Shown in pieces: positions 5,386 through 36,217 of a DNA stretch of 50,545 nt. A program made the position numbers and the translations under genes. Under the pieces are notes generated by a model. The model searched no databases. It was not told the origin of the DNA and saw only the letters and a program-made list of their open reading frames with translations. This stretch comes from a virus. Taxonomy: Duplodnaviria; Heunggongvirae; Uroviricota; Caudoviricetes. The DNA lies in the IMG/VR virus record IMGVR_UViG_2617270947_000016; one strand, written 5' to 3'. Numbering within the stretch: position 1 is the stretch's first letter; each line of letters begins with the position of its first letter.

Positions 5386-8300
5386 TCAGCTGATACTGAT
5401 GCCTGCGGTGGCTTTCTTCATCACCACAACCAGCAAATCGCTGATACTTGCTGTGGGATACCAGTTATTCACCAGCCATGCTGATACCGAAAACTCCAGC
5501 GTCATGTGACCGTGACCGGCAGGCATATCAATAACGCCACTGTAAATCAGCGTATTATCCAGCGCGGTACGGTTATAAATTTCAGCACCGTTTTTCCGCA
5601 CTATCAGACGGCATGAGGAGTAAATATCAGTATGCTCTCTCTCATGCTTAGCGCCACTGAATGCCACCGCCGGAATAACAATTTGCCGGTCAAACGGCTG
5701 ATCGTCATAAACCCTGACGGTAATGGTCCCTGATGGCCACCGCTCCGGTGCACGGGAGTCACGGGGGAAAGCTTTGCCCACTGTTTTAACGAGATCGCCT
5801 TCAATCTGGTTGGCGGACAGTTTTCCCAGAACCCGACAGTTCTCGTTAATCGTGACGTTGTTGAGCGTCCCGGAGTTCGCATTCACGTTACCGCTGATAT
5901 CGGCATTTTTCGCCGTCAGCCGCCCGTCCGGTGTCAGGGAAAATGCCGGAGGATTACCGCCGCTGGTAATGGTGGGAGCCGTCAGGCGTTTCAGGAACAC
6001 GTCGTTCATGAATATCTGATCGCCCTGACCAACAAACATCGGCTTTGTGTTGCCATTCGCAGGATTAATCATCGCAATCCTGTCTGCCGCCAGCAGCACC
6101 TGACTCTGCATGCCGTCAGGGGTGTTTTCAATACCGGCACCAATACCCGCGATATAAAGGCGTCCGTCCTGCATCTGCTGCAGCTTCACAGCCCACATGC
6201 TGTTCAGGTTATTATTTGTATCAACCTGAACCTTCTGTATCTGCTGGATTGCCGCACTCTGGTCTTTCAGTTTCTTATTGACAGTCTGCGTGATTTCATT
6301 GCTGACATCCGTAATGGACGTCCTGATTTCAGCCAGGTCAGGCGCAAGCTGACCGTTATCAATCTGCGTCCACAGCTCCTGAGCCAGATGTGTTTTCCCT
6401 ATCTCTCCTTTGAAAAAATCCAGGTAACCTTCCGCATCATCGCTCGCCCGACCGACAGCCTCCACGAATGCCGATTTGCCAACAGTATTCACACTGCGGA
6501 TATAAAAATAATAATCATGGCCCGGTTTGATATTGATACTGGCAGCTATCCAGTACAGCGCCGAGCCAAGATAGCGGGCTGCGGTTTCAACCTGCCTGAT
6601 ATCCGCAATCCGCTTTTCCGAGAACCAGAACTCAAACTGTACCGTCGGGTCATAAACGGCAAGATGCGGCGTGGCGGTTATCTGAAAATAGCCCGGCGTC
6701 AGCTCAATAGTGACCGGTGCCGCAGGCGCGTTAATCCTGAAGGTGGTGGTCGCAGGTTCGCCCTGCTGGCCATAACTGTTAATCGCCCTGACCGTCAGGG
6801 TGTATTCCCCCAGCGGCAGGCCGCTGAAACGGTGCTCCGTGTCTGCGGTGATGGCGGTGGTCACCAGTCTGGCATCCGTTCCCTTACCACTGGTCAGGCG
6901 CAGACTGAAGCGCACACCCTTCACCACCCGCGGCGTGTCCCATTTCGCCTGCGCCAGATACTGGCCGTCAGCTGCGCTCACCTCCACCGTCAGGTGCTGC
7001 ACTGCCGGTGGGATGACGCTGTTCAGGGAGCCTGACTGCGGCTCAAAGCGGGCACCGTTATCCACGATGGCTTCTTTTTCCGGTACGTGCTGCACCGCCG
7101 TGATGGCAAAGGTGCCGTCCGTGTTTTCCCGGACGGAGACACAGCGGAACAGGCAACGGCGCAGTGACGGCAGGGAGAGTCCCCACACCCCGTATGTCTC
7201 CACACCATCAGGCAGGGTACTGACCTGTATCCGGTCCGGCGCGGGGTGTGCGGTGATGTCCACACTCACCGGCTTACCGCTGCCGTTAATCAGGTTCACC
7301 GCCGATGTACCTGTCTCCGGCAGGGTAACCTCACGGTCCAGCGTCAGGGTGCGGGTGGCAGCATCAATGGACAGGATACGTCCGCCGGTCATAGTCCCGG
7401 CATAGTCGTTATCACAGATTTCAATAATGTCACCCGGTGTGTGACGCAGCCCCTGTGACCCGAGCGTGAAGTCCACCGTCTGCGTTTCCAGCAGTTCGGT
7501 CTTTATCACCCACAGACCTGCACGGTGAGCCTGACCGCGGCTGGTACAGCCAAACGCATCCATCTTCAGCAGATTGCGTCCGTAGCGCAGTATGGCTTCC
7601 GGGTCTTCCACCAGTTCCGTGGAGGTCTGCCAGCCGTTCTGCGGGTCGGTGTAATTCACCTCCACCGCCGTGTGCCGGTCCTTCAGGGCACTGAAGCTGT
7701 AGCGGAATCCCACGCCGTTATCATCCACCACCACATCGCTGTTGGTGTACGGCCACACCACATCCGACGGGCGGTCCTGAACGAACGTCAGCGTCTGACC
7801 GTTCCATACCGGCATACAGCGCATCGCAGAGCAGAAATCACTGAGAACGTCCCACGCCTTACGCTGTTGTGCCAGGTACGCATTAAAGGTCATCCGCGGC
7901 TCGGTCCCCCCGAAACCATCCGGGACCGTCTGGTCGCAGTACTGCCCGATGGCATACAGCGCCCACTTGTCCACATCCGCCGCCCCCAGACGTTTTCCCA
8001 TGCCGTAGCGCGGGTGAGTCAGCATGTCCCACAGGCACCAGGCCGGGTTGTTGCTGTATGCCGGTTTCAGACTGCCGTCCCAGATACCACTGTACGTGCG
8101 TTTTTCCGGGTCATAGTTTGACGGCACCTGGATGATGCGACCGCGGATATGGTAGTTCACCGTCATCTGCTGGCCGCCGAACTGCTCCGCATCCACCTGC
8201 AGCCCCACAATGGCCGTGTTCGGGTAGCACTGTTTCACATCGATGATTTCGGTGTATGACGACCACAGCGTCTTATTCTGCAGTTGGTCCGTGGTGCTGT

Positions 8301-25909: not shown

Positions 25910-26383
25910 TTATTTCAGGCACTGAGTGCGGATATAGTCCTGTGCCCCTTCCAGTTGCTTGTGCATCGTCATCAGCCGCTCTCTGAGGGTGAAATAATCC
26001 CGTGTAACGGTGTCTGCCAGTTGGGGGCCGGTTGCATTATCCACGCCGGAGGTGGTGGGGGCTTCACGCACGGAGCCTGGACAGGTGGCGTTGATCCGCA
26101 GGCGCTTACGACCAGCGGCAACATCAGCGCGCAGAGTTTCATTTTCAGCTCTCGCATCGGATAATTCCCTCGAGTATTTTGCATCGAGCGCAGCAACATC
26201 GCGCTGGCGCACCTGCATATCAGTAATGGTTGCGTTCGCCAGCTTCAGTTCACTGGCTTTGTTATCGCGCTGCGCTTTGTAGGTAATCGCGTTATCACGG
26301 TAATGGTCTGTTGCCATCCACAGCGCACCACAGGCCACCAGCAGAATAACGATAAACGCGGAAAGCATTCGGTTTATGTTCAC
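25910..26383 (-). CDS. Rz: Spanin inner-membrane subunit Rz
   Basis: 157 aa; [14 protein letters not shown]...DYFTLRERL matches lambda Rz. Confidence 0.88.
25972..26157 (-). CDS. Rz1: Spanin outer-membrane lipoprotein Rz1, embedded in +1 frame of Rz
   Basis: Lipoprotein signal ...[10 protein letters not shown] and proline-rich [14 protein letters not shown] matches lambda Rz1. Confidence 0.7.
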
Positions 26384-26511
26384 CCCAGCAACCCCGACGA
26401 AGACAACATCATCCAGGCCATGGAAAGAAAAAGAGCAACCAGCATTAGTGAAAATGAAATGCCGACAATTACACAGAGGATCTTCGCCAGCGTTATGAGT
26501 TTGTCTGACAT
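26380..26511 (-). CDS. Hypothetical 43 aa single-TM peptide, translationally coupled to Rz
   Basis: Strong RBS GGGAGG 7 nt upstream of ATG; stop overlaps Rz start (ATGA); hydrophobic core. Confidence 0.4.
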
Positions 26512-26525
26512 GCTTAATCCTCCCT

Positions 26526-26708
26526 TCACGATTTCAACGCAATGACCAGTTTTGCCAGCCCATACAGCATCGGGGACACAGCAACACCGACCGCCACCCA
26601 CTTAATGGCAAAAGCCAGTGCTCTGCTGATGTCATCAGTTACAGGCGCTTTCAGTTCAAGGCCATTTTTCATAGTCAACCTCAACAGAATTCGTTTATAC
26701 TTCGCCAT
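26526..26708 (-). CDS. Hypothetical 60 aa protein with basic N-terminus and C-terminal TM segment
   Basis: RBS AAGGGAGA before ATG at 26708; sits between endolysin terminator and Rz. Confidence 0.4.
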
Positions 26709-26740
26709 GTTCTCCCTTGCCTTACTCAAGGTCAGAAACA

Positions 26741-26775
26741 CAAAACCCCGCTTGGTGCCAACAAACGGGGTTTTT
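26741..26775. terminator. Hairpin with U-tracts on both strands downstream of endolysin
   Basis: CCCCG...CGGGG stem flanked by A-run and T-run. Confidence 0.4.
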
Positions 26776-26864: not shown

Positions 26865-27398
26865 TTATCTGTCGATTCCCCAGCACGCCAGCGCGCTCTC
26901 CTGGTCACGACGGGATACCTGACCATAACAGTTATTTGAGCGGATACGGCAGTCTCTGCCACCGTCCTTAATCCACCAGCGAATCGCCTCACACGCTCCC
27001 CTGCGATCACCTGCATTAATTCGTTTATAAAACGTCGACGGAAAACACTTACCGGGGCCAATGTTGTACGGACAGAATGACGCGATCCCCGCTTTCTGGG
27101 GTTCACTCAATGGCACTCTGATGTTTTTCTCCACCCATGCCAGCGCCTTATCACGCTCAATGGCGTTAACCCGGTCGCATTTTTCCTTCGACAACTTCAT
27201 GCCCGGAACGACAGGTTTGCCATCCACCAGGATGGCACCGCGGCAGATGGTCCAGATACCCGCGCCATCACGGTATGCCGTGGTGTGGTTACCTTCCTTT
27301 TCATCCAGAAACTGGTCGAGAATGTCAGGCGCAGGCGCACCAGCGGCAATCAGCGCCAGAACGGCAGCCGACAGGCCGTATTTGATTTTGGTGTTCAT
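26865..27398 (-). CDS. R: SAR endolysin (lysozyme, phage 21 R-like)
   Basis: 177 aa; Gly/Ala-rich N-terminal signal-anchor-release segment; catalytic region with E...D...T spacing resembling R21. Confidence 0.85.
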   Translation of the reverse strand: MNTKIKYGLSAAVLALIAAGAPAPDILDQFLDEKEGNHTTAYRDGAGIWTICRGAILVDGKPVVPGMKLSKEKCDRVNAIERDKALAWVEKNIRVPLSEPQKAGIASFCPYNIGPGKCFPSTFYKRINAGDRRGACEAIRWWIKDGGRDCRIRSNNCYGQVSRRDQESALACWGIDR

Positions 27399-27523
27399 GG
27401 ATATTTATCAGGATTTATCGGTTCCGAATCCCTGGATATGTTAAGTCTTCAGCCCGCCAGTGGTGGGCACTGGCGTAAACTCAACAATGCGAGATGGCTG
27501 CCTCGCAAAGATAAGGAACAGAT

Positions 27524-27799
27524 ATGAGTGAAGAAAATAGCAAAGAGAATACAGCACTTTTTGACAGAATTTTTACTCTTGAGTTACAGGTCGGTTTTCT
27601 TCTCCCAAAGATAATCAAAGCAATGGATGCACTAAGTAAAAATAACGCTGTGTCAGATTACCTGATCGCCGAAATGGAACATCTAATTAAAGAAATACCA
27701 AAGACAGTTGCTCGTGATGATAAAAGATTCCTCAAGGCTGCTGAAGATGCTCTTTCAACAGTGAAGCGCAGCTTAGATGCGCCGCGCGATCAAGAATAG
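27524..27799 (+). CDS. Hypothetical protein on the strand opposite the lysis genes
   Basis: 91 aa ORF in visibly AT-rich DNA; RBS AAGGA; fills gap between R and upstream ORF; terminator downstream. Confidence 0.4.
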   Translation: MSEENSKENTALFDRIFTLELQVGFLLPKIIKAMDALSKNNAVSDYLIAEMEHLIKEIPKTVARDDKRFLKAAEDALSTVKRSLDAPRDQE

Positions 27800-28262
27800 T
27801 TTCTTTCATTTCATCTGCTGCAAGCACCTCATTTTTTGTTGGGGTGCTTTTTTTCAATTCAGCGATATAGCACTCCAGTTTTTCAATGCGTGATTCAATA
27901 TCATCGTTTTCTGACCGCAATGCCGTCGGTGGCGTCTTCAGAGAACCAGTAATTATTCCCGGTAGTTTTCCTCTGTAGGTTATCAACACATCCTGCGCCT
28001 CTAAAATTACGGGGCGCTTTTCCGGCAACGGACCATCCCCTTCACATAACCCGGCAGCAACATCCATGAAAAACTGCTTCGCCTGCTTTTTCGCCTCAGC
28101 TTCGTAAAACTCCAGCGTGGCATCTTCAGTACGGTCAAGACTAATCGCCACATCTGGCAACAACAGTGACGGATACCCACCAATTTCCAGTGCCACAGTA
28201 ACAGTAATCTTATCCGGGTAATTATTTATCCCTTTAACAACCAGTTCGTATTTTTTCTTCAT
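27732..28262 (-). CDS. Hypothetical protein inserted between holin and endolysin
   Basis: 176 aa ORF starting 5 nt after holin stop with RBS GGGGAGAG; no family recognised. Confidence 0.5.
   Translation of the reverse strand: MKKKYELVVKGINNYPDKITVTVALEIGGYPSLLLPDVAISLDRTEDATLEFYEAEAKKQAKQFFMDVAAGLCEGDGPLPEKRPVILEAQDVLITYRGKLPGIITGSLKTPPTALRSENDDIESRIEKLECYIAELKKSTPTKNEVLAADEMKETILDRAAHLSCASLLKEHLQQP
27823..27854 (+). terminator. Candidate intrinsic terminator for the plus-strand ORF
   Basis: AGCACC...GGTGCT stem followed by TTTTTT. Confidence 0.35.
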
Positions 28263-28266
28263 CGCT

Positions 28267-28482
28267 TTACTCTCCCCGCGCCGCCTTACGCCGGTCCTCT
28301 CTGATTTTGAAATACAGGTTAGTCAGATATGTCAGCAGCCCAAACAGCAGACTCCCCAGCACGCCTATTGCCGCCCACTGAGACGGGGAAACCCTGTCCA
28401 GCAACTGCAGGAACCAGTAGCCCGTTCCCACCGCTGACGTGGTGTATGACACACCTGTTGTGATTTTTTCCATCTGGTACAT
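28267..28482 (-). CDS. S: Class II holin (pinholin, phage 21 S-like) with dual-start motif
   Basis: C-terminal [46 protein letters not shown] matches S21-type holins; starts MYQMEK (two Met); ORF-track N-terminal extension not used. Confidence 0.85.
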
Positions 28483-28632
28483 ACCCCGTCTCCCGTTATC
28501 CGGAAGCTGACAACAATAAAAAAAGCCACCAGTTAAGTACTGATGGCTCTGATAACTCATGCAGGCATCTCAGACGACCCACTGACACTACCGGTGAGTT
28601 TAACGATACCTTCCATTTGGCTGGCTCACTTT

Positions 28633-30486
28633 TTATGATGATGCCGGTGCATTTATCTCCAGCACCAGACTTTCTATCTCAACGCCATACGTTGCATTTT
28701 TGGTAATATCCGTCAGCGTCAGTGCATTTAGTCCCACTGTCAGACTGTCTTTTATGACCTGGAATGCCGGGCCAGCCACTCCATTCAGTTTCGGAGTAAC
28801 CGTGGCACTGCCGGCGGTGAACACCAGCTCCAGCGTCTGCCAGTCGTTACTGTAATTCCCGAACTCGCCCAACTTTGTGTTTCCGGCTTTCTTGTGATGC
28901 ATCAGATTCAGTTTGCCGTCTGTGGTCTGGGTGAAGAACGACATCAGGAACGGGTTACCAGTCCCGGTCATCGCCACGACGTCAGGTAACGCTACATCGG
29001 TATACAGATAAATTCCCAGACCGAACTGGTTGTTGGTCAGTGCGCCTGACAGTCGAAACTTACAGCTCAGTCTGCCACCCCGTGTCAGCAGGGAGACTGC
29101 GTCATCCACCGGGCGCGTCAGGGACCAGGCTTTATTGCTCTGCTTGGTGATCTTAAATACACCATCTGACAACTGAATTCCGCCATTCTTAATGCTCCAG
29201 CCCTGCGCAGCAGCATCTCCGGCTGTCGGCAACAGGGAGATTGTGCGTACGGATGCATCTTCAGACGGCCCCGATGGCGTGTCGCCGCCGGGCGAGGGTT
29301 TGATTTCCGGTGCCTTACCACTGATGAAGGCTGAGGTGCGCCCGGCTGCGTTCAGAATAGCGGTTGCCATACGATCCGGAATAATGCTCCTGCGCGCCCA
29401 TGAACTGAAATGTGTCGGGCGGTTTGATGATACCTGGTTTCCATTCGTTCTCGATGCCGCACCGTAATATCCTGATGCCGGAATATCCGGATCTTCTGCC
29501 GGTGCGTTAGTGGCGGTATTGACGCCGTTACCGTCTGTCATGAAGGGCACAAAATAAACGCCCTCACTCTCCCTGTTTTTATACCCTCCGTACACGGTGT
29601 CGTACTGGGTAGCGTATGTATTTTTCCAGTAATACGTCGTGTCACCACAAATCCACGGTACAACTGCAGCACTGCCGCCATGGCACTGCGCGTTAAATCC
29701 GGAAAGGTCAGTACGGAACTGCTTCAGCATGGCCGTGAACAGGTCCGGTTGCTGTGCGTAGGTGGCAGCGCTCATGTCAAATTCGCCCTGCATCCAGCAC
29801 ACCGCCAGCAACACATTTTTCGGGTTCTTCTGTAATGCAGCTTTAGTGCGCGCAATCAGGTCCTGATATAGCGGTTTACCCACACCCCAGCGTGCCGAAT
29901 CCTGGCTGGCCCCCGCGTCCGCACTGAATGTCCCCTCCGCGCCCTGGGTGAATGCCGAACCACCACGACAGCATGGTACCAGCAGGATCCCCGCGTTATT
30001 CGGGATATACGGGAGCAGTTTTTTGGCAATATGTAAGCCCTGGCCGACACAGCCGTACTGCCCTTTGCTCAGGTCTGCCTTCGGATGATTCAGCGTACTC
30101 ATATCCTGCACATCATGCAGACAGTGGTCAGCCGGGATGATGTCGTTATACGTACAACTCTCTCCACCCGGAGTTACCGTGCTGCGGCGCGCCAGCTGTT
30201 TAATGCGCGGATCCGGAGCATCGTAAGAATCCGGTAACGGAAGCCCTTCACCGTAGGCCATGCCGTTGGACTGTCCGGCAAGCACAACCACGTAGAACCA
30301 GTCCGGCTCAGATGAAGGGCCGACCTGTGGATCTCCTTCAATAGCCACCGCCTGCATCAGTGTGTACGGCGTAATGGCAACCGGTCCGCCATATGGCTGC
30401 CAGCCCTCTTTCAGTTTGTGTGTCAGCTTTTCCGCAAGGTCTGACGGCGACGCCGCCCTGACAACATCATAGTGTTTAAATGCCAT
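28633..30486 (-). CDS. nanS: Prophage sialate O-acetylesterase (NanS-p-like; DUF1737 N-terminus plus SGNH/SASA esterase domain)
   Basis: 617 aa; MAFKHYDVVRAAS... N-terminus and VVLAGQSNG esterase motif; located between tRNA cluster and holin as in Stx-type prophages. Confidence 0.8.
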   Translation of the reverse strand: MAFKHYDVVRAASPSDLAEKLTHKLKEGWQPYGGPVAITPYTLMQAVAIEGDPQVGPSSEPDWFYVVVLAGQSNGMAYGEGLPLPDSYDAPDPRIKQLARRSTVTPGGESCTYNDIIPADHCLHDVQDMSTLNHPKADLSKGQYGCVGQGLHIAKKLLPYIPNNAGILLVPCCRGGSAFTQGAEGTFSADAGASQDSARWGVGKPLYQDLIARTKAALQKNPKNVLLAVCWMQGEFDMSAATYAQQPDLFTAMLKQFRTDLSGFNAQCHGGSAAVVPWICGDTTYYWKNTYATQYDTVYGGYKNRESEGVYFVPFMTDGNGVNTATNAPAEDPDIPASGYYGAASRTNGNQVSSNRPTHFSSWARRSIIPDRMATAILNAAGRTSAFISGKAPEIKPSPGGDTPSGPSEDASVRTISLLPTAGDAAAQGWSIKNGGIQLSDGVFKITKQSNKAWSLTRPVDDAVSLLTRGGRLSCKFRLSGALTNNQFGLGIYLYTDVALPDVVAMTGTGNPFLMSFFTQTTDGKLNLMHHKKAGNTKLGEFGNYSNDWQTLELVFTAGSATVTPKLNGVAGPAFQVIKDSLTVGLNALTLTDITKNATYGVEIESLVLEINAPASS

Positions 30487-30680
30487 GAATCCTCCCGGCC
30501 GGGATAATATTGTGAGTAAAATGAGGAGCGGGCTGAAGTCCGGAAGTTACAGGACAATGGCAGAAGAGAGACAATAGCCCGCAATACGAAAAAGGCCGCG
30601 CTATTGCGCAGAGTGATTACTGTCGGATATTATTCGCCAGCTGAAATATTACTTCACGTTTTGTTGTTTATTCCTTGCCG

Positions 30681-30708
30681 CCCGCGTCTCCCTGCGCGGG
30701 ATTTTTTT
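30681..30708 (+). terminator. Hairpin plus T7 tract (plus strand) in the tRNA-nanS spacer
   Basis: CCCGCG-N8-CGCGGG followed by ATTTTTTT. Confidence 0.4.
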
Positions 30709-30720
30709 GTCCATAAGAAA

Positions 30721-30738
30721 GCCCCTCCGGAGAGGGGC
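30721..30738. other. Perfect 7 bp hairpin GCCCCTC-CGGA-GAGGGGC
   Basis: Direct sequence inspection; U-rich tract follows on minus strand. Confidence 0.4.
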
Positions 30739-30935
30739 TGGAGAGTGGCGCTATGTGCCATTGCATGGTGCCGGGTGCCTCCCGGTGAATTCAGTACCAG
30801 CACCTGAATCCGCGATTATCCCATATACCTACTCGCTGATTGCCCCTCCGCACAGGGGGATTCACCATGCCAGTTTCTTTTAACAAACTCCCCGCAAAAC
30901 AGACAACTGTCAACCGTCTGAATTGTGAGACATTT

Positions 30936-30961
30936 AAAAAAAAGGCCCGCAAAAGCGAGCC
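30936..30961 (-). terminator. Rho-independent terminator downstream of tRNA cluster
   Basis: GGCTCGC-TTTT-GCGGGCC hairpin followed by T8 on minus strand. Confidence 0.55.
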
Positions 30962-30975
30962 AGGGAAAATAAGTG

Positions 30976-31052
30976 TGGCGCGTTGTACTGGATTCGAACC
31001 AGTGACCGATTGCTTAGAAGGCAATTGCTCTGTCCGGCTGAGCTAACAACGC
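30976..31052 (-). tRNA. tRNA-Arg (anticodon UCU)
   Basis: 77 nt cloverleaf: acceptor GCGTTGT/ACAACGC, anticodon loop CTTCTAA, T-loop TTCGAAT, 3' CCA. Confidence 0.85.
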
Positions 31053-31065
31053 AGGGTACAGATAA

Positions 31066-31142
31066 TGGACCGCCATCGAGGACTCGAACCCCGCGCAACC
31101 AGCTTCGAAGGCTGGCGCTCTATCCTGATGAGCTAATGGCGG
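31066..31142 (-). tRNA. tRNA-Arg (anticodon UCG)
   Basis: 77 nt: acceptor CCGCCAT/ATGGCGG, anticodon stem CCAGC/GCTGG with loop CTTCGAA, T-loop TTCGAGT, 3' CCA. Confidence 0.75.
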
Positions 31143-31149
31143 TATGTGA

Positions 31150-31225
31150 TGGTGGCCCTTGCTGGATTTGAACCAGCGACCTGGCGATTATGAGTCGCTC
31201 GCTCTCACCACTGAGCTAAAGGGCC
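31150..31225 (-). tRNA. tRNA with CAU anticodon, ileX-like (tRNA-Ile2 / Met)
   Basis: 76 nt: GGCCCTTTAGCTCAGTGGT...CTCATAA...GGTTCAAATCC...CCA; resembles E. coli ileX. Confidence 0.8.
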
Positions 31226-31274
31226 GCGCGCAGAATAATAACGTTACGGAATTAATACTGCAATCTCATCCGTT

Positions 31275-32324
31275 TCAAACGATTAAATCCTGAACTTCCC
31301 TGACTGTCTGCTCAAAACGTCCGGTCTCCAGCTCAACACCAATCGCACGACGCCCCAGTGCCATCGCCGCTTTTACCGTTGAACCCGACCCCATGAAAAA
31401 ATCCGCAACCAGATCACCAGGACGACTACTTGCGCTGATTATCTGCTGCAGCATTTCTGCCGGTTTTTCGCACGGATGTTTCCCTGGATAGTACTGCACC
31501 GGTTTATACGTCCACACATCGGTGTACGGCACCTGCACCGTCACACCGAAATACCGCCGCAAATTTTTATATTCACTCAGCAGTTCCATATACTGCCGGT
31601 TCAGCTCACTGTATGTGCTGACCAGCTGGTGGTGTGGCTTTTCCAGTTCCCCGCGCTGATGTTTCTCTTCTGCCACCCGGGCAAACAGCGACTGTAATTT
31701 CAGATAATCGCTTTCGTTCGGTAGCTGCCACTGACTGGCACTGAACCAGTGCGGCACCATGTTTTTCTTTCCTGTGGCATCTGCAATCTGTTTTGCCGTT
31801 ATCCCCAGGGCAGCGCGCGCATCACGAAAGTAAGCAATCAGCGGGGCCATCACATGCTGTTTCAGTGCCCTGCCCTTCGCCTCATACCCGGCATCTTTCG
31901 GACGATACGGCCCCTGATAATGTTCCGCGAACAGAATGCGCTCTGTGGCGGGGAAATACGCCCGCAGGCTTTCCTTGTTGCATCCGTTCCAGCGTCCGGA
32001 CGGCTTCGCCCAGATAATATGGTTCAGCACACTGAAGCGTTCACGCATCATGATTTCGATATCAGATGCCAGGCGATGACCACAGAACAGGTAAAGACTT
32101 CCGGCAGGTTTCAGCCCCCGCCAGAACTGCGCCAGACACTGGTCCAGCCACTTCAGGTAATCATCGTCGCCCTTCCACTGGTTATCCCAGCCCTCAGGCT
32201 TCACTTTAAAGTACGGCGGGTCCGTGACTATCAGGTCAACAGAATTTTCGGGTAACGACCGGATAAATTCCAGGCAGTCGGCGTTGATTAACTCACAACT
32301 GGATATTTTTACAGTATTAGCCAT
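31275..32324 (-). CDS. DNA methyltransferase, beta-class (DPPY then FxGxG), probable N6-adenine specificity
   Basis: 349 aa; VTDPPYF catalytic motif followed by C-terminal FFMGSGST SAM-binding motif. Confidence 0.8.
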   Translation of the reverse strand: MANTVKISSCELINADCLEFIRSLPENSVDLIVTDPPYFKVKPEGWDNQWKGDDDYLKWLDQCLAQFWRGLKPAGSLYLFCGHRLASDIEIMMRERFSVLNHIIWAKPSGRWNGCNKESLRAYFPATERILFAEHYQGPYRPKDAGYEAKGRALKQHVMAPLIAYFRDARAALGITAKQIADATGKKNMVPHWFSASQWQLPNESDYLKLQSLFARVAEEKHQRGELEKPHHQLVSTYSELNRQYMELLSEYKNLRRYFGVTVQVPYTDVWTYKPVQYYPGKHPCEKPAEMLQQIISASSRPGDLVADFFMGSGSTVKAAMALGRRAIGVELETGRFEQTVREVQDLIV

Positions 32325-32464
32325 AGATCAATAAGCACTTCTCTGATAGGCTCATACCGCTTTTGCGCAAAGCAGATGGGCCTGAGGTTTGCTTGTGACC
32401 CCAACGCATGAGCAGATGGCTGGTGGGTGCCCCTAACACCCACCAGCCGCCCATTTACCACAAA

Positions 32465-32489
32465 TAAAAAAGCCTTCACTGCGGAAGGC
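32465..32489 (-). terminator. Rho-independent terminator at end of wHTH gene
   Basis: GCCTTC-N7-GAAGGC hairpin followed by T6 on minus strand. Confidence 0.5.
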
Positions 32490-32673
32490 GTCTGTAACAA
32501 CCGAACTGATAGTCTGCCAGACCCGCCATAACCAGCTGGGTCAGTATTAACTGGCAGCGTTCGCGTGAAAGGTAAGTATTCTGCGCTATCTCCCCGACTG
32601 TCGCCGGTTCGGTAACGCTTAATTCATTAAACACCACTCTGGCGGTTTCTGTCATATCCTGCTGTTTTAGCAT
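32476..32673 (-). CDS. Small winged-helix protein, PapI/FaeA-like
   Basis: 65 aa; pattern ...TVGEIAQNTYLSRERCQLILTQLVMAGL... resembles PapI/FaeA winged-helix regulators. Confidence 0.4.
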   Translation of the reverse strand: MLKQQDMTETARVVFNELSVTEPATVGEIAQNTYLSRERCQLILTQLVMAGLADYQFGCYRRLPQ

Positions 32674-32791
32674 GCCTTTTCCCTTTTCTGGTTAACGTGA
32701 CATACCAATAACTCTTGTCGAAAAAGCCAGCAAGCTGAAAGACCGATATTAATAACTACCAGCGCGTTTAATGTACCGCACTTCGGGCATC

Positions 32792-32814
32792 AAAAAACCC
32801 GCTCAATGGCGGGG
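32792..32814 (-). terminator. Rho-independent terminator after membrane-protein cassette
   Basis: CCCGC-N6-GCGGG hairpin followed by T6 on minus strand. Confidence 0.5.
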
Positions 32815-32835
32815 TTAATTAATGAGGTAACAACC

Positions 32836-33633
32836 TTAACTTGTTTGATTCTGTACTTCAGTGGCCTTCTTCCCTTCAATACCTGCCTTGAAAGTCTCGA
32901 ATGTTTCAACATTAAACAGCGAAAAAGATTCGATCTGATCGAAGGGCAACACATGCCTAAACTGATAAACTGACAATGGCTCAGAAGTTAATGTGATACC
33001 CTGACTAAGGTAGTAGTCCACATAATTATGCTCAACACAAAAAGTCAGAGTATCTTTATCTCTGTACCCGGACATAAAAGGGATTAGCACCAATGTGTTA
33101 GTATCTAACTGATTGAAACGTGCCTCATCAATCATCCCCACATAGACCTTGCGAGACTTCAGTGTAACCAACAATAACAATCCACGCTCAACTGATTCAA
33201 GAAGGATATTTTCCACGGCACTATGAGCCGCAATTTCTTCAAAAATAGCCTTGCGCTTTTGTGGGTCTTTATGGTTTTTGGTTGCCTCTGATGCCTTCCC
33301 GATACTTACAATAATAGTGAAAGCTATCGACATAGCAGGGAACATGCTCAACCCAAACACTCGCATTTTGAGAAAGTCATGGGCGAAAGTAAAGGGAGCG
33401 TACCAACCAAACAAGTACGCTGGAATGTTCCAAAGTGACATTCCAGCGTACAGAACAACAACCAATAAGGCAGCGATAAGAATACCACTTATGAGAAACT
33501 CACCACCTTTCAGTGCAACATCAAAGTATGCATTCCAACCGATCGCTTTGCTTTGACGGTATCGTGACGGCAAATGGCAGTTGGTATAGTGATAACCACA
33601 AACTAAAACAATAACAATCAGCGCAGCCCACAT
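32836..33633 (-). CDS. Hypothetical integral membrane protein (three N-terminal TM helices, ~150 aa soluble C-terminal domain)
   Basis: 265 aa ORF in visibly AT-rich DNA; start 6 nt after stop of upstream small gene. Confidence 0.6.
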   Translation of the reverse strand: MWAALIVIVLVCGYHYTNCHLPSRYRQSKAIGWNAYFDVALKGGEFLISGILIAALLVVVLYAGMSLWNIPAYLFGWYAPFTFAHDFLKMRVFGLSMFPAMSIAFTIIVSIGKASEATKNHKDPQKRKAIFEEIAAHSAVENILLESVERGLLLLVTLKSRKVYVGMIDEARFNQLDTNTLVLIPFMSGYRDKDTLTFCVEHNYVDYYLSQGITLTSEPLSVYQFRHVLPFDQIESFSLFNVETFETFKAGIEGKKATEVQNQTS

Positions 33634-33639
33634 AGAAGA

Positions 33640-33867
33640 CTAACCCTTCTTCTTAGTACTCAATCCCTTAATATTGGCTGCGAAAGCCTTTTGCACATCA
33701 GCGTTGTTGCGATTCAAAACCATCGAACCATTACTATCAATGAAAAACTTGTCACTTTCATGCTTAGCTTCTTTTCCATCACACATGGAAGCTATATCTG
33801 CAATTTTTTTGATGATCTTCTCAGGTGAGAGGATCGCGCGAGCGGCAAGTGTTAGATATTTCGGCAT
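33640..33867 (-). CDS. Hypothetical small basic protein (75 aa), first gene of two-gene cassette
   Basis: Internal start MPKYLTLAARAIL with strong RBS GGAGGGGAG; the ORF-track N-terminal extension is hydrophobic read-through. Confidence 0.55.
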   Translation of the reverse strand: MPKYLTLAARAILSPEKIIKKIADIASMCDGKEAKHESDKFFIDSNGSMVLNRNNADVQKAFAANIKGLSTKKKG

Positions 33868-34044
33868 GCTCCCCTCCGTTAACAGATAAAACACAAAAAG
33901 CACACAAACAAAGTATGCGCACATCCTAACCTATGTGGCTAACAACCACTTTCTTTTATAAGATGAGTGTATTACCTAAAGGGTAACTCGGCAATAGCAG
34001 AATAGTTTTAGCAAGGTAAAATCGATGGTCTTTCGCTCAACTTA

Positions 34045-34075
34045 CGACAAAAGATAGCCCGCTCAGCAGCAGGCT
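34045..34075 (-). terminator. Terminator-like hairpin downstream of Q-like gene (tR'-position candidate)
   Basis: AGCCTG...CGGGCT stem followed by TCTTTTGT on minus strand. Confidence 0.3.
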
Positions 34076-34139
34076 TTGTTTAGTTTGCCATCGTGTACAA
34101 AATCAGCAAAATATCAGATTTACACGAAATGTACGCGAT

Positions 34140-34835
34140 TTAATTGACTTTTGCAATAACCCGCCGCGAAAAGGTCGCTTTTTGTTGCGATCTTGTTTTC
34201 ATGGTATAAATCAAAGATTCGTTGTCGAGGTTCTTAAAAATGTCGCACATATCACGCCAGTAGTGCGCATAATTGTGGCTCCAGTTGTCTGACTTAACTC
34301 CACACAGTCTGGCAAGTTCCTGTCGCTGGTAGACGTCACACCCAGTAATCCTCCCCCTGACATCCTGCGCCGCCAGCCAGATTAATTTCTTCAGACGCTC
34401 AAGCGTTTTCCCTGTAATTTTTCTGGTGCCAAAATGCACCTGAAACTTATCCCACGCCCATTTCGCAATGACCACCTGATAATCCCAACTCGGATTTTCA
34501 CTGTATACCCACAGTACCCACGCCTTCTGATGCTCTTCAAGAGACAGAACGGCGCGTCGCCATGATGATGTCGAAAACTCAACCGGACTGACTAGGGCAA
34601 TTGATGAACCTTTCGCCAGCGATTGCTTTCCCGGGATCGGTGGATTATCCAGCGTTACCATTTTTCCAGTGACCTTATCGCGGTACCGGATTTTTTTACG
34701 TCTGTAACGCCCTGTATCAAACATGGCATTCTCCTGCCAGGCTTCAAGCTGACCTTTTGTTGCCCCACTCAAATCGGCGGTGGCGATAATGAGTTGCTCA
34801 CGAACAAACTGTAAATACTGGTTATTCATGCGCAC
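34140..34835 (-). CDS. Putative late-gene antiterminator, Q-like (assignment by position)
   Basis: 231 aa ORF directly downstream of rusA and upstream of the late region, the Q position; no lambda Q similarity or zinc finger seen. Confidence 0.4.
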   Translation of the reverse strand: MRMNNQYLQFVREQLIIATADLSGATKGQLEAWQENAMFDTGRYRRKKIRYRDKVTGKMVTLDNPPIPGKQSLAKGSSIALVSPVEFSTSSWRRAVLSLEEHQKAWVLWVYSENPSWDYQVVIAKWAWDKFQVHFGTRKITGKTLERLKKLIWLAAQDVRGRITGCDVYQRQELARLCGVKSDNWSHNYAHYWRDMCDIFKNLDNESLIYTMKTRSQQKATFSRRVIAKVN

Positions 34836-35185
34836 TCCAGCTCTGTGATTTTTATCCCCAACCGACCACCAGGAACAGGCAGTCCGCGCACAATATTGAT
34901 TTCATCAAACTGCTCGTCGTCGATAAGCAACCCCGCATGTGTCAGTGCATCCAGTGGTGCTTTCAGAATATTGTCCAGGTCACGACGGCGCTTATCCGGT
35001 GGCTCTGCAATCACCTTTATCGCCAGCCTTCCGGACAGGCTTAATTTCAGCCGCTGCTGGCGAACAATAAGCGCCACTGCCCGGCGATAACGCTCCCCGG
35101 CTTTTGATACAAAATATGTGCTGCCACGGCGTCGCCAGTAAGTGTTCACCGTCGGCGGGTAAGGTAAAACCAAATCTATGAGCAT
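34826..35185 (-). CDS. rusA: Holliday junction resolvase RusA
   Basis: 119 aa; RRRDLDN...DALT..G...DD motif region matches RusA. Confidence 0.85.
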   Translation of the reverse strand: MLIDLVLPYPPTVNTYWRRRGSTYFVSKAGERYRRAVALIVRQQRLKLSLSGRLAIKVIAEPPDKRRRDLDNILKAPLDALTHAGLLIDDEQFDEINIVRGLPVPGGRLGIKITELECA

Positions 35186-35197
35186 CAGTCACCTCTT

Positions 35198-36217
35198 TTA
35201 CCCAAGCACGCCAGTTGCAAAGGCGTGATCAAGAAAACGAAAAATTAAATCAACCTGAGAACCATGCTTTTCTTCGAACGCCAGAGGATCCGCATGAAGC
35301 TCGTTGTGATGCTCCCGACACAGCGGTAGCGTGAAAATATCGTGAGATTTTGTCCCCATTCCGCCCTGACCATGACCAATCAGGTGATGGGGATCGTCGG
35401 CTGGCTTACCACAACATGCACACGGCTGCGTCTTAACCCAGCGCGTGTACTTTTCATTAACCCAGCGACGACGTTTTGGGCGTAACATAAAAGACTCCGG
35501 AGACTCCGGATCCACTTTCAGCGCCAGCACCTTTTTCGCCTTATCCTGGATGATGCTGGTGGCAGTAACCGAAGGCACAAGGTCACTTTCCCGGGTGACA
35601 GACGGCACAACAGGCTTCGGTAATCTCAGTGCCTTACGGGCTGCACTTTCCGGTAAGGCATCCGCCAGGTCATTACGAATCAGCCACCAGCACAGTTCCG
35701 GCATTGTCACAACGTGACTGTCATCAAAACCAAGATCACGGCGCACAACAGACAACACCCAGCGGGCACAGTTATCCGTTGCCATTGCTTCCAGCCGTTC
35801 CGTGAACTGGTCACGGAGAAGATTGTCACAGTGCCAGCACAGACGGATTGCGCCTGGCGCGTGCCGCATTGTGGTCATGTTCTCGCTGTGCCATCCGGAA
35901 TGAGGCCACTGACAGCCTTTTTCACGAAGTAACCAGCTCTCAAGGCATTCCACGCCACCAGCACGACGGATCACCGCCTCATGGCGGAACACGGCCCGAA
36001 CGGCAGGATCATCCGCCAGCGGTTGTGATGCTGCCGGAACGGCACCGCTGGCGAAAGATGAATAACGTTCCGGCTCAGGCTCCAGCAGGACACGCCCCTG
36101 CATAAACAGGGGCATCAGCTCTGAACCGGGCCTGAACAATACAATCCCCATACGCGGGGCAATTTCAGGGGTCAGCAGTGCTCTCACGGTCACCTCAGCA
36201 AACGATATTGAATGCAT
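35198..36217 (-). CDS. DUF968-like nin-region protein with C-terminal Cys/His (HNH-like) motif
   Basis: 339 aa; C-terminal CACCGKPADDPHHL...CREHHNELH. Confidence 0.55.
   Translation of the reverse strand: MHSISFAEVTVRALLTPEIAPRMGIVLFRPGSELMPLFMQGRVLLEPEPERYSSFASGAVPAASQPLADDPAVRAVFRHEAVIRRAGGVECLESWLLREKGCQWPHSGWHSENMTTMRHAPGAIRLCWHCDNLLRDQFTERLEAMATDNCARWVLSVVRRDLGFDDSHVVTMPELCWWLIRNDLADALPESAARKALRLPKPVVPSVTRESDLVPSVTATSIIQDKAKKVLALKVDPESPESFMLRPKRRRWVNEKYTRWVKTQPCACCGKPADDPHHLIGHGQGGMGTKSHDIFTLPLCREHHNELHADPLAFEEKHGSQVDLIFRFLDHAFATGVLG

What the first reader, a model, noticed from the sequence alone, without database searches (positions are those of the whole stretch)
27524..28262. Foreign insertion splitting the pinholin and SAR-endolysin genes, with a convergent gene pair
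In phage 21-type and lambda lysis cassettes the holin and endolysin genes are adjacent. Here a 176 aa ORF starts 5 nt after the holin stop, and a 91 aa ORF on the opposite strand lies in AT-rich DNA with its own candidate promoter and terminator (27823-27854). The two ORFs converge and overlap at their 3' ends by ~68 nt. Neither resembles a lysis protein I know. A counter-oriented gene inside the lysis operon could give antisense control of lysis timing or be a lysogen-expressed accessory gene.
Basis: partly seen in the sequence, partly recalled or inferred. Interest (0 to 1): 0.55.

Follow-up and report, generated by a model that had tools for sequence, protein, structure and literature searches.

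The report
Swappable accessory gene inside prophage lysis operon
Of the two genes between the holin and endolysin of this E. coli prophage, one is an ordinary resident of such lysis cassettes (YdfR) and the other is a rare, backward-facing accessory gene of unknown function that recurs at several unrelated places in the late regions of related prophages.

Summary
On the minus strand the order is pinholin, 176-aa ORF, SAR endolysin. A 91-aa plus-strand ORF ("A") converges on the 176-aa ORF with exactly 68 nt of 3' overlap, lies in AT-rich DNA and has its own intrinsic terminator.

Residues 1-112 of the 176-aa ORF are a YdfR/DUF1327 domain. Holin-YdfR-lysozyme is the annotated order in every record examined, including the Qin prophage, and DNA of this region matches 4335 of 5426 complete E. 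coli genomes. What is extra, relative to short-YdfR phages such as BP-4795, is a 469-bp segment (27453-27921). It carries gene A and a coiled-coil tail ("B") fused to YdfR.

A is a real gene: substitutions fall mainly at third codon positions. It is rare (45 of 5426 genomes). Homologues of 58-72% identity sit among tail, terminase or lysis genes of Salmonella, Enterobacter and Citrobacter prophages. There A always faces against the late genes and converges on a B-like ORF.

The same promoter and 5' hairpin drive at least three unrelated genes elsewhere, so this is a cargo-swapping site.

A is most likely a lysogen-expressed accessory gene that late transcription silences, not a lysis-timing device. 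No protein, structure or defence library gave A or B a function.

The parts
28267..28482 (-). Phage 21-type class II holin (pinholin), 71 codons, with the MYQM dual-start motif. The open frame extends upstream to 28560.
   Evidence: Pfam Phage_holin_2_1, E 2.3e-32. PHROG holin families. The identical gene is annotated "class II holin family protein" in relatives.
27732..28262 (-). ydfR-long gene, 176 aa: a DUF1327 domain fused to a coiled-coil tail (B).
   Evidence: Pfam PF07041 at 151.9 bits against a cutoff of 25, over residues 1-112. phrog_2091 over the full length, E 1.8e-80. 282 homologues in length classes 114 to 305 aa.
27927..28262 (-). DUF1327/YdfR N-terminal domain, residues 1-112. 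This is the resident part, shared with short YdfR proteins.
   Evidence: Alignment A1 shows 97% identity to the 114-aa YdfR of BP-4795. The AlphaFold2 model gives three strands and a helix for residues 1-73. The first 72 residues of K-12 YdfR bind the RNase E N-terminal domain (PMC13232886).
27732..27911 (-). Module B, residues 118-176: a helical hairpin or coiled coil. It is homologous to free-standing 51-63-aa ORFs that have their own ribosome-binding site and ATG in other prophages.
   Evidence: Alignments A6 and A9. No stop codons in the B frame against 0-6 (1-6 in all but one case) in each of the other two minus-strand frames, in the eight lineages with a short non-overlapping stretch. 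All five free-standing versions in the table have a GGAG-type site before an ATG. Helices at 113-138 and 143-173. No codon-position signature of purifying selection.
27524..27799 (+). Gene A, 91 aa: a counter-oriented accessory gene of family phrog_18136, predicted to be a three-helix protein.
   Evidence: phrog_18136, E 5.4e-53. Substitutions at codon positions 1/2/3 are 19/14/36 and 6/3/25, with 23 synonymous against 6 non-synonymous codon changes. 35 clusters at 90% identity, all named members in Enterobacteriaceae. AlphaFold2 pLDDT 73.
27414..27442 (+). Candidate sigma-70 promoter of A: -35 TTTATC (27414-27419), 17-bp spacer, -10 TATGTT (27437-27442).
   Evidence: The -10 keeps the form TAnnnT at the same distance from TCAGCCCG in nine lineages. 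It falls below the consensus-scan threshold. The same element precedes unrelated genes in PhiR5_1, phage 86 and C. freundii.
27449..27523 (+). Predicted structured 5' leader of A. It has a hairpin near the transcript start (27455-27475), a second hairpin (27488-27507) whose loop holds the invariant GATGGCTG, a 6-codon mini-ORF (27494-27514) and the ribosome-binding site AAGGAA.
   Evidence: Per-sequence minimum-free-energy folds. Compensatory changes: GCCAGTG/CACTGGC against GTCCATG/CATGGAC. G-U pairs favour the plus-strand RNA. No Rfam family matches.
27822..27854 (+). Intrinsic terminator of A, lying inside the coding sequence of module B. It is unidirectional.
   Evidence: Terminator scan, plus strand only. 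Stem covariation in E. kobei and Citrobacter.
27453..27921 (.). 469-bp segment absent from short-YdfR prophages (BP-4795 type). It comprises the leader, A, the terminator and B.
   Evidence: DNA alignment A3. Exact boundaries, the flanking GTCTTCAG repeat and the imperfect repeats GCCAGTGGTGG and GCCGTCGGTGG.
26865..27398 (-). SAR endolysin, 177 aa. It is the next late gene after 333 untranslated nucleotides that are antisense to A.
   Evidence: Pfam Phage_lysozyme, E 1.3e-23. The N-terminal YGLSAAVLALIAAGAPAP stretch is visible in the sequence. No minus-strand terminator lies between 27398 and 27732.

Best explanation
The holin-endolysin gap holds two things.

1. ydfR. This DUF1327 late gene is a normal resident of phage 21-type lysis cassettes in E. 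coli prophages. Here it is in a "long" form whose last 59 residues are a coiled-coil module, B.

2. A cargo slot that faces against the late operon. The slot has a weak sigma-70 promoter, a structured 5' leader, a variable ORF and an intrinsic terminator buried in the B coding sequence. In this window the ORF is gene A, a 91-aa three-helix cytoplasmic protein.

Shown by the data:
- A is protein-coding.
- A, its leader, its terminator and B travel together, with the same 68-nt convergent overlap in most lineages examined (47-86 nt in the more divergent ones).
- They occur at several different positions in the late regions of enterobacterial prophages. A is always antisense and B always sense to the late genes.
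- The same promoter and leader, together with B's N-terminal half, frame unrelated ORFs in other phages.

Inferred:
- A is transcribed from the prophage during lysogeny as a transcript of about 400 nt (roughly 27449-27854).
- When antiterminated late transcription reads through S, ydfR-B, antisense-A, R and Rz, A is shut off by transcriptional collision and by duplex RNA.
- B is made only at that late time, as the tail of YdfR here and as a micro-ORF elsewhere. It acts on or with A, for example by neutralising A so the phage is not harmed by its own accessory function.

This is the logic shown experimentally for the phi80 taiEcA/atiEcA noncontiguous operon. The biochemical activity of A is unknown.
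For: - YdfR identity and usual position. K-12 YdfR binds RNase E.
- A is coding: third-position excess and a synonymous excess in the part that does not overlap B.
- A's position varies but its orientation does not. In Salmonella it lies between gpM and gpL, or between the tape-measure gene and the next tail gene. In Enterobacter and phage CharmingMan it lies upstream of the terminase genes. In Citrobacter it lies upstream of the holin. In L036 it lies between lysis and terminase genes.
- A convergent B-like ORF overlapping A's 3' end was found in the lineages examined: 68 nt in five, 71, 86 and 47 nt in three more, and not measured in CharmingMan. It has its own ribosome-binding site and ATG when free-standing.
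- A very divergent YdfR-long protein pairs with an A homologue (hhalign probability 88%, E 3e-6).
- The leader and terminator are conserved with compensatory changes.
- The same promoter and leader sit in front of unrelated ORFs in PhiR5_1, Stx2 phage 86 and C. freundii.
- Presence/absence polymorphism and AT-richness: A in 45, B in 127, the leader in 95 and the short junction in 773 of 5426 genomes (composition).
- No minus-strand terminator lies between ydfR-B and R.
- An experimentally characterised analogue of this architecture exists (PMC11364771).
Against: - No expression data were available. The promoter matches consensus poorly (7 of 12, missed by the scan).
- B shows no codon-position signature of purifying selection: 23/14/20, with 3 synonymous against 27 non-synonymous codon changes. 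Much of its conservation could be imposed by A's terminator and A's 3' coding end.
- No A-B interaction was tested.
- A and B have no similarity to the two phi80 ORFs taken, by size and position, to be TaiEcA and AtiEcA, or to any PADLOC, Pfam or NCBIfam model. Structure searches found nothing.
- About a third of the E. coli copies of A carry an inactivating internal deletion, so A is dispensable.
- The phi80 pair is divergent with 5' overlap; this pair is convergent with 3' overlap.
Confidence: 0.55

Rival explanations
1. Antisense control of lysis. The A transcript, or transcription from its promoter, pairs with or collides with the late S-ydfR-R-Rz transcript. This changes the ratio or timing of endolysin and spanin relative to holin, and the protein A is secondary.
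For: - A's predicted transcript (about 27449-27854) is fully complementary to the late mRNA between ydfR-B and R.
- A's promoter lies within 50 nt of the start codon of R.
- No minus-strand terminator separates them.
- In phi80, Q expression reduced TaiEcA, showing cross-talk between such transcripts.
Against: - The same cassette occurs between tail genes and next to terminase genes, where it cannot be tuning lysis.
- A's protein sequence is under purifying selection, so the protein matters.
- 773 of 5426 E. coli genomes carry the short YdfR-lysozyme junction with nothing between the two genes, and only 45 carry A.
Confidence: 0.12
2. Only A matters. B is not a functional protein module. The 64-residue tail on YdfR is incidental read-through into cassette DNA, and the free-standing B ORFs are by-products of A's terminator and 3' coding end.
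For: - Substitutions are flat across B's codon positions and few changes are synonymous.
- B's KKSxPxKxExL motif is the antisense of the terminator stem and T run, and its SAS motif is the antisense of A's conserved VKRS (derived).
- PGAP marks ydfR as a pseudogene missing its C-terminus in two relatives.
- Short 114-aa YdfR proteins are common.
Against: - The B frame is free of stops in all nine lineages, while the other two frames carry 0-6 stops each in the eight lineages with a short non-overlapping stretch.
- A GGAG-type site plus an ATG is kept in all five free-standing versions in the table, despite about 50% sequence divergence.
- The in-frame fusion to DUF1327 is kept in three E. coli lineages and in the very divergent L035.
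- The ILDWA motif of B is better conserved than the A residues opposite it.
Confidence: 0.2
3. A and B form a selfish toxin-antidote or addiction module. Its convergent, 3'-overlapping transcripts regulate each other, as in type I toxin-antitoxin systems with a shared terminator region. The module persists by being hard to lose rather than by benefiting phage or host.
For: - Convergent transcription with 3' overlap around a terminator is the geometry of some type I systems (my own knowledge: par of pAD1, txpA/RatA).
- The pair moves as a unit between genomic contexts.
- The leader is long and structured.
Against: - Neither protein has the short hydrophobic, membrane-spanning character of type I toxins, as their sequences show.
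- A is deleted internally in about 16 genomes with B left intact.
- B's C-terminal half is replaced in C. freundii.
- Neither loss is what an addiction module should tolerate.
- PADLOC gives no significant hit.
Confidence: 0.08
4. The plus-strand ORF is a chance antisense frame, and the region is simply the 3' end and untranslated region of a long ydfR.
For: - Antisense frames of coding DNA can stay open by chance.
- CB9615 has a 329-aa YdfR that fills the whole gap with no plus-strand ORF of the A type.
Against: - A shows a third-position and synonymous excess.
- 75% of A lies outside any minus-strand ORF.
- A is conserved at 58-72% identity in contexts that lack ydfR.
- A has its own ribosome-binding site, leader and terminator.
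Confidence: 0.03

Closest known systems
YdfR (E. coli K-12 Qin prophage; Pfam DUF1327/PF07041; NCBI "YdfR family protein")
   Same: Residues 1-112 of the 176-aa ORF belong to this family (151.9 bits). The gene occupies the family's usual position between the class II holin and the lysozyme.
   Different: K-12 YdfR is 103 aa and BP-4795 YdfR is 114 aa. The protein here carries a 64-residue extension whose last 59 residues are module B, and it overlaps a convergent gene. The family's function is still unknown; the only data are RNase E N-terminal-domain binding and RNA co-purification (PMC13232886).
phi80 taiEcA/atiEcA defence and counter-defence pair in a noncontiguous operon (He et al. 2024, PMC11364771)
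   Same: A gene on the opposite strand is embedded in the Q-dependent late operon of a lambdoid phage. In phi80 that gene is expressed in the lysogen. A small sense-strand partner lies next to it and is made only during lytic growth.
   Different: No sequence similarity was found to the two phi80 ORFs taken, by size and position, to be TaiEcA and AtiEcA (hhalign). That ORF is about 204 aa against 91 aa for A. By that assignment the phi80 genes are divergent with overlapping 5' ends, whereas these are convergent with overlapping 3' ends and a terminator inside the partner's coding sequence. No defence phenotype is known for A.
Classical lambdoid morons such as lambda bor and lom and HK97 gp15 (my own knowledge)
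   Same: An AT-rich, presence/absence-polymorphic gene with its own terminator sits between late genes. Like bor, it is oriented against late transcription.
   Different: Here the promoter, leader and terminator form a conserved frame that accepts different ORFs. The terminator and the gene's 3' end are shared with a late-strand ORF.
Type I toxin-antitoxin loci with convergent, 3'-overlapping transcripts, such as par of pAD1 and txpA/RatA (my own knowledge)
   Same: Convergent transcription units overlap at their 3' ends around a terminator, and the leader is structured.
   Different: Both partners here are hydrophilic helical proteins. Neither is a small hydrophobic toxin and there is no evidence of a non-coding antitoxin RNA. 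Either partner can be lost independently.

Membership tests
YdfR / DUF1327 (PF07041) | Match to the Pfam model above its gathering score | tested here: met
   151.9 bits against a cutoff of 25, E 5.7e-45, residues 1-112.
YdfR / DUF1327 (PF07041) | Position between a phage 21-type holin and the endolysin of a lambdoid prophage | tested here: met
   Window ORF map. The same order is annotated in BP-4795, phage 86, PhiR5_1, 99RCEF and Qin.
YdfR / DUF1327 (PF07041) | Binding to the RNase E catalytic domain through the first 72 residues, the only experimental property reported | not testable with these tools
   Reported for K-12 YdfR only (PMC13232886).
Moron (autonomous accessory transcription unit in a phage late region) | Own transcription terminator | tested here: met
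   Plus-strand stem-loop at 27822-27849 with a T run. Stem covariation in relatives.
Moron (autonomous accessory transcription unit in a phage late region) | Own promoter | tested here: inconclusive
   A -10 of the form TAnnnT is conserved in position in nine lineages. The match to consensus is only 7 of 12, so the scan missed it. No transcription-start data were available.
Moron (autonomous accessory transcription unit in a phage late region) | Present in some and absent from other closely related phages, with deviant base composition | tested here: met
   A is in 45 of 5426 genomes and the short junction in 773 of 5426. G+C is 39.5% against 51.2%.
Moron (autonomous accessory transcription unit in a phage late region) | Expressed from the repressed prophage | not testable with these tools
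   Needs RNA-seq or a reporter assay in a lysogen.
Noncontiguous operon | A gene on the opposite strand lies inside an operon whose transcript reads across it | tested here: met
   The order is S, ydfR-B, A (antisense), R, Rz, with no minus-strand terminator between 27398 and 27732. This is shown by sequence only.
Noncontiguous operon | Reciprocal regulation of the antisense gene and the operon through the overlapping transcripts | not testable with these tools
   Requires transcript and protein measurements with and without late transcription or RNase III.
Tai/Ati tail-assembly-inhibition system | Sequence homology to TaiEcA or AtiEcA | tested here: not met
   hhalign probability at or below 0.3% for A against the two phi80 ORFs, and 0.08% for the YdfR/B alignment (A6) against the 76-aa ORF. 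The ORFs (204 aa, 6366-6980 minus; 76 aa, 6961-7191 plus) were assigned to TaiEcA and AtiEcA by size and position only.
Type I toxin-antitoxin | Small hydrophobic membrane-active toxin peptide | tested here: not met
   A and B are hydrophilic helical sequences with no membrane-spanning stretch.
Known anti-phage defence systems (PADLOC-DB v2) | Significant match to any model | tested here: not met
   The best hits for A have E 0.0068 and 0.047 at 12-14 bits. B and YdfR have none.
Lysis regulators (antiholin or endolysin regulators) | Obligatory association with a lysis cassette | tested here: not met
   A/B cassettes lie between tail genes and next to terminase genes in Salmonella and Enterobacter prophages.

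The most novel reading that the evidence does not exclude
The promoter-leader and the B/terminator form a conserved docking frame for a family of swappable, lysogen-expressed genes in the late regions of enterobacterial prophages. A and B would then be a previously undescribed effector/neutraliser pair, a defence and a self-protection function. Their 3'-overlapping convergent layout would force them to be inherited together and expressed in opposite phases of the phage life cycle. In E. coli the neutraliser has been welded onto YdfR, an RNase E-binding late protein.
Probability: 0.2. Interest if true: 0.7.

Novelty: new variant of a known kind. Interest (0 to 1): 0.45.

Why it matters
- It corrects a tempting misreading. 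A gene between holin and endolysin is normal for this cassette type.
- It pins the real oddity to a rare 469-bp unit.
- That unit is one occupant of a cargo slot with a shared promoter, 5' hairpin and terminator. At least four unrelated small genes use this slot across E. coli, Salmonella, Enterobacter and Citrobacter prophages.
- Slots of this kind are where prophage-encoded defence and counter-defence genes have recently been found.
- The fixed antisense orientation, together with a sense-strand partner ORF, gives a simple and testable expression switch: on in the lysogen, off in lytic growth.
- It also gives a concrete handle on the uncharacterised YdfR family, through its natural long and short forms.

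Tried and rejected
- **Family searches for A and B.** Pfam, NCBIfam, PADLOC and PHROGs returned only unknown-function PHROGs.
- **Rfam search of 27200-28700.** Nothing approached a gathering score.
- **Profile search of 1.84 billion representative proteins with the A alignment.** Only 9 representatives were found, so there are no distant annotated relatives.
- **AlphaFold2 of A** (pLDDT 73) and of YdfR-B (pLDDT 60), followed by Foldseek against the PDB. The best E-values were 1.9 and 0.055, which are not informative. A few weak dsRBD-like hits for the YdfR model were not trusted.
- **Sequence search of PDB chains with the YdfR profile.** Only coiled-coil (GCN4) noise was returned.
- **Scan of genome contigs with the A alignment.** No confirmed locus was found.
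- **Homology of A and B to the phi80 ORFs assigned to Tai and Ati.** None was found.
- **"A is a chance antisense ORF."** Rejected on codon-position statistics.
- **"The whole gap is a foreign insertion."** Rejected because YdfR is the annotated resident of this gap in every record examined and its region matches most E. coli genomes.
- **Literature.** Searches for DUF1327 and ydfR found no study of this locus beyond the RNase E interaction screen.
Full report
**What is at the coordinates**

The lysis cassette runs on the minus strand. In order it contains:

- a NanS-p-like SASA esterase (28633-30486);
- a phage 21-type class II holin (28267-28482, with the MYQM dual-start motif);
- a 176-aa ORF (27732-28262);
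- a SAR endolysin (26865-27398);
- Rz and Rz1 (25910-26383 and 25972-26199).

A 91-aa ORF lies on the plus strand at 27524-27799. The two ORFs converge and overlap by exactly 68 nt. A plus-strand-only intrinsic terminator (27822-27849 plus a T run) follows the 91-aa ORF. It lies inside the 176-aa ORF. The segment is AT-rich: 39.5-41.4% G+C against 51.2% for the window.

**The 176-aa ORF is mostly a resident gene**

- Residues 1-112 match Pfam DUF1327 (YdfR) at 151.9 bits against a cutoff of 25.
- DNA from this region matches 4335 of 5426 complete E. coli genomes. Every annotated row shows the order holin, YdfR, lysozyme, including Qin ydfR-rrrQ.
- The same order is annotated in phage BP-4795, Stx2 phage 86, PhiR5_1 and strain 99RCEF.

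Holin and endolysin are therefore not normally adjacent in this cassette type. The only functional data on the family come from a 2026 interaction screen: K-12 YdfR binds the RNase E catalytic domain through its first 72 residues and co-purifies with RNA (PMC13232886). The AlphaFold2 model has low overall confidence (pLDDT 60). It gives a small N-terminal domain of three strands and a helix, a poorly predicted stretch at 72-117, and a helical hairpin at 113-173. Structure and sequence searches of the PDB were uninformative.

**What is extra here**

A DNA alignment with BP-4795, whose YdfR is 114 aa and lies 50 nt from R, shows that 27453-27921 (469 bp) is absent from the short form. Four features mark the boundaries:

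- the segment follows one copy of GTCTTCAG (27445-27452), and a second copy lies 12 nt beyond its right end (27934-27941);
- imperfect repeats lie near its two ends: GCCAGTGGTGG just inside the left end and GCCGTCGGTGG just outside the right end;
- the BP-4795 junction reads GCCAGCGGTGG, which looks like a crossover between those two repeats;
- a 3-nt discrepancy (CCC) remains unexplained.

The segment contains the 91-aa gene (A) with its upstream region and terminator. It also contains residues 113-176 of the 176-aa ORF.

**A is a real gene**

- It matches phrog_18136 (E 5.4e-53) and 35 database clusters whose named members are all Enterobacteriaceae.
- A profile search of 1.84 billion representative proteins adds only a handful of distant members.
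- In the part of A that does not overlap the minus-strand ORF, substitutions at codon positions 1/2/3 are 19/14/36 between the window and Salmonella.
- Between Enterobacter and Citrobacter they are 6/3/25, with 23 synonymous against 6 non-synonymous codon changes.
- The model is a three-helix protein (pLDDT 73) with no structural relative.
- No Pfam, NCBIfam or PADLOC family matches significantly.

**A is not tied to lysis**

Homologues of 58-72% identity were found in five other kinds of context:

- between gpM and gpL, or between the tape-measure gene and the next tail gene, in Salmonella prophages;
- between a glycosyltransferase-like gene and the HNH/terminase genes in Enterobacter prophages and in phage CharmingMan;
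- immediately upstream of the holin in a Citrobacter prophage;
- between lysis and terminase genes in another lineage;
- converging on a very divergent YdfR-long protein on a 1-kb contig.

Wherever flanking genes are visible, they lie on the opposite strand to A.

In E. coli A is rare. It occurs in 45 of 5426 complete genomes. About 16 of those carry an internal deletion that removes the ribosome-binding site and the first 27 codons. Only one of 50,697 phage records has an intact homologue.

**A travels with a partner ORF, B**

The DNA conserved across contexts runs from about 90-125 nt upstream of A's ATG to about 110 nt beyond its stop. On the minus strand the downstream part is an ORF of 51-63 codons.

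Evidence that B is translated:

- All five free-standing versions tabulated have a GGAG-type ribosome-binding site and an ATG.
- The overlap with A's 3' end is 68 nt in five lineages, and 71, 86 and 47 nt in three more divergent ones; it was not measured in CharmingMan.
- The B frame has no stop codons in any of nine lineages. In the eight with a short non-overlapping stretch, each of the other two minus-strand frames has 0-6 stops, and 1-6 in all but one case.

In this window and in all E. coli copies B has no start of its own. It is fused in frame to the DUF1327 domain, as residues 118-176. The same fusion occurs with a DUF1327 domain of about 55% identity (L015) and in the very divergent L035 protein (hhalign probability 88%, E 3e-6).

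Evidence against B being a constrained protein:

- B shows no codon-position signature of purifying selection: 23/14/20, with 3 synonymous against 27 non-synonymous codon changes.
- Part of its conserved sequence is the mirror image of features of A. KKSxPxKxExL is the antisense of A's terminator, and SAS is the antisense of A's VKRS.

B is thus probably translated, but it is weakly constrained as a protein.

**The YdfR family is a mosaic**

Length classes are 114/116, 161, 176, 183, 197, 211, 246, 268, 296, 305 and 329 aa. They share the N-terminal domain and, in nearly all long forms, the coiled-coil segment LRSEKDDxESRIEKLE.

Forms such as PhiR5_1 (211 aa) and CB9615 (329 aa) keep the antisense of A's last 17-20 codons although they lack A. 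The recombination breakpoint falls at A's KAA codons. This pattern, the L035 pairing and the BP-4795 junction together suggest that a long YdfR with a convergent gene is old, and that short forms arose by deletion. That conclusion is an inference.

**Expression signals, and a cargo slot**

Upstream of A, in order, are:

1. a -10 hexamer conserved in position (TATGTT, 27437-27442; TAnnnT in all nine lineages);
2. six nucleotides;
3. an invariant TCAGCCCG;
4. a hairpin (27455-27475) with compensatory changes in Citrobacter and L036;
5. a second hairpin or closing helix involving the invariant GGATGGCTGA;
6. the ribosome-binding site.

G-U pairs favour the plus-strand RNA. Rfam has no match. The -35 is poor, and the promoter scan missed the site.

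The same -10 and first hairpin precede three ORFs unrelated to A:

- an 86-aa ORF in PhiR5_1 (phrog_2572);
- a 104-aa ORF in Stx2 phage 86 (phrog_1853);
- an 83-aa ORF in C. freundii, which converges on a B-like ORF that keeps only B's N-terminal half.

The leader occurs in 95 of 5426 E. coli genomes and module B in 127. The locus is therefore a slot with fixed expression signals and exchangeable cargo, and A is one of the cargoes.

**How it most likely works**

Shown:

- an autonomous, counter-oriented gene with its own terminator lies inside a late operon that has no minus-strand terminator across it;
- its orientation is fixed relative to late genes in every context;
- it has a sense-strand partner.

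Inferred:

- A is made from the prophage during lysogeny;
- late transcription, if antiterminated by a Q-type protein, reads antisense through A and silences it;
- B is made only at that late time.

This is the logic demonstrated for phi80 taiEcA/atiEcA. There a counter-oriented defence gene is expressed in the lysogen. A small late-operon gene protects the phage's own assembly, and Q expression lowers Tai levels (PMC11364771).

A and B share no sequence similarity with the phi80 ORFs I assigned, by size and position, to TaiEcA and AtiEcA. The geometry also differs: convergent with 3' overlap here, divergent with 5' overlap in phi80. This is an analogy of design, not family membership. The activity of A remains unknown.

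**Verdict**

- "Foreign insertion splitting the lysis genes" is only partly right.
- "Antisense control of lysis timing" is unlikely as the main role.
- "Lysogen-expressed accessory gene" is the best-supported reading.
- New here: the gene belongs to a conserved convergent pair and to a cargo-swapping slot shared across enterobacterial prophages.

Interest is moderate. The architecture is a variant of known moron and noncontiguous-operon designs. Its proteins are wholly uncharacterised and the hypothesis is directly testable.

Noticed in passing
window 28522-28550 (minus strand): A terminator-like hairpin (12 pairs) with a T run lies between the NanS-p-like esterase gene and the true holin start at 28482. 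It sits inside the spurious N-terminal extension of the 97-codon holin ORF. It may be a terminator that late-gene antitermination reads through.
   Followed up: no
window 26380-26741 (minus strand): Two small ORFs (71 aa at 26526-26741 and 73 aa at 26380-26601) fill the gap between the endolysin and Rz. Equivalent small ORFs are annotated as hypothetical proteins in strain 99RCEF. This is a second filled gap in the same lysis cassette.
   Followed up: no
window 27409-27434: A hairpin or inverted repeat (CAGGATT...AATCCCTG) overlaps A's -35 and spacer, and also the 5' untranslated region of R. In Salmonella the outer CAGG/CCTG is kept while the inner stem differs but still pairs (ATGTAA/TTACAT). 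It is also present in BP-4795, which lacks A. Whether it is an operator or an RNA structure is unexplained.
   Followed up: partly
window 27494-27514: The invariant GGATGGCTGA in A's leader contains an ATG. In the window it opens a 6-codon mini-ORF (MAASQR, then a stop). In Citrobacter and Enterobacter the same ATG is in frame with A and would add about 10 residues to its N-terminus.
   Followed up: partly
L022-L026 (IMG/VR contigs) and about 16 complete E. coli genomes: A variant of gene A carries an internal deletion that removes the ribosome-binding site and the first 27 codons. The promoter, leader hairpins, 3' end and the YdfR-B fusion are left intact. PGAP annotates nothing there.
   Followed up: partly
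L036 3221-3388 (B-like ORF): This ORF gives a weak Pfam hit to SlyX (E 0.11). SlyX and YdfR were the two small proteins recovered together as RNase E N-terminal-domain binders in PMC13232886. The hit is probably only coiled-coil resemblance.
   Followed up: no
L005 about 3845-3870 and L008 about 3850-3875 (minus strand): In the Salmonella and Enterobacter copies, the left end of the cassette carries a minus-strand intrinsic terminator (CCACCTCCGGGTGG then T7; GCCGCCATCGTGCGGC then T6). It lies just before the next late gene. The E. coli lysis-cassette copy has no such terminator.
   Followed up: no
L038 2012-3001 (E. coli O55:H7 CB9615): An intact 329-aa YdfR-long ORF fills the entire holin-lysozyme gap. 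RefSeq nevertheless annotates only a 112-codon pseudogene fragment marked "missing C-terminus". The intact 176-aa ORF of 99RCEF is treated the same way.
   Followed up: partly
window 30500-36200: No stx genes lie upstream of the esterase. The region holds a DNA methyltransferase-like ORF (31275-32324), a Q-like antiterminator ORF (34140-34835) and a RusA-like ORF (34826-35185). These identifications rest on reading the translations only. The window is the whole IMG/VR contig UViG_2619619132_000015.
   Followed up: no
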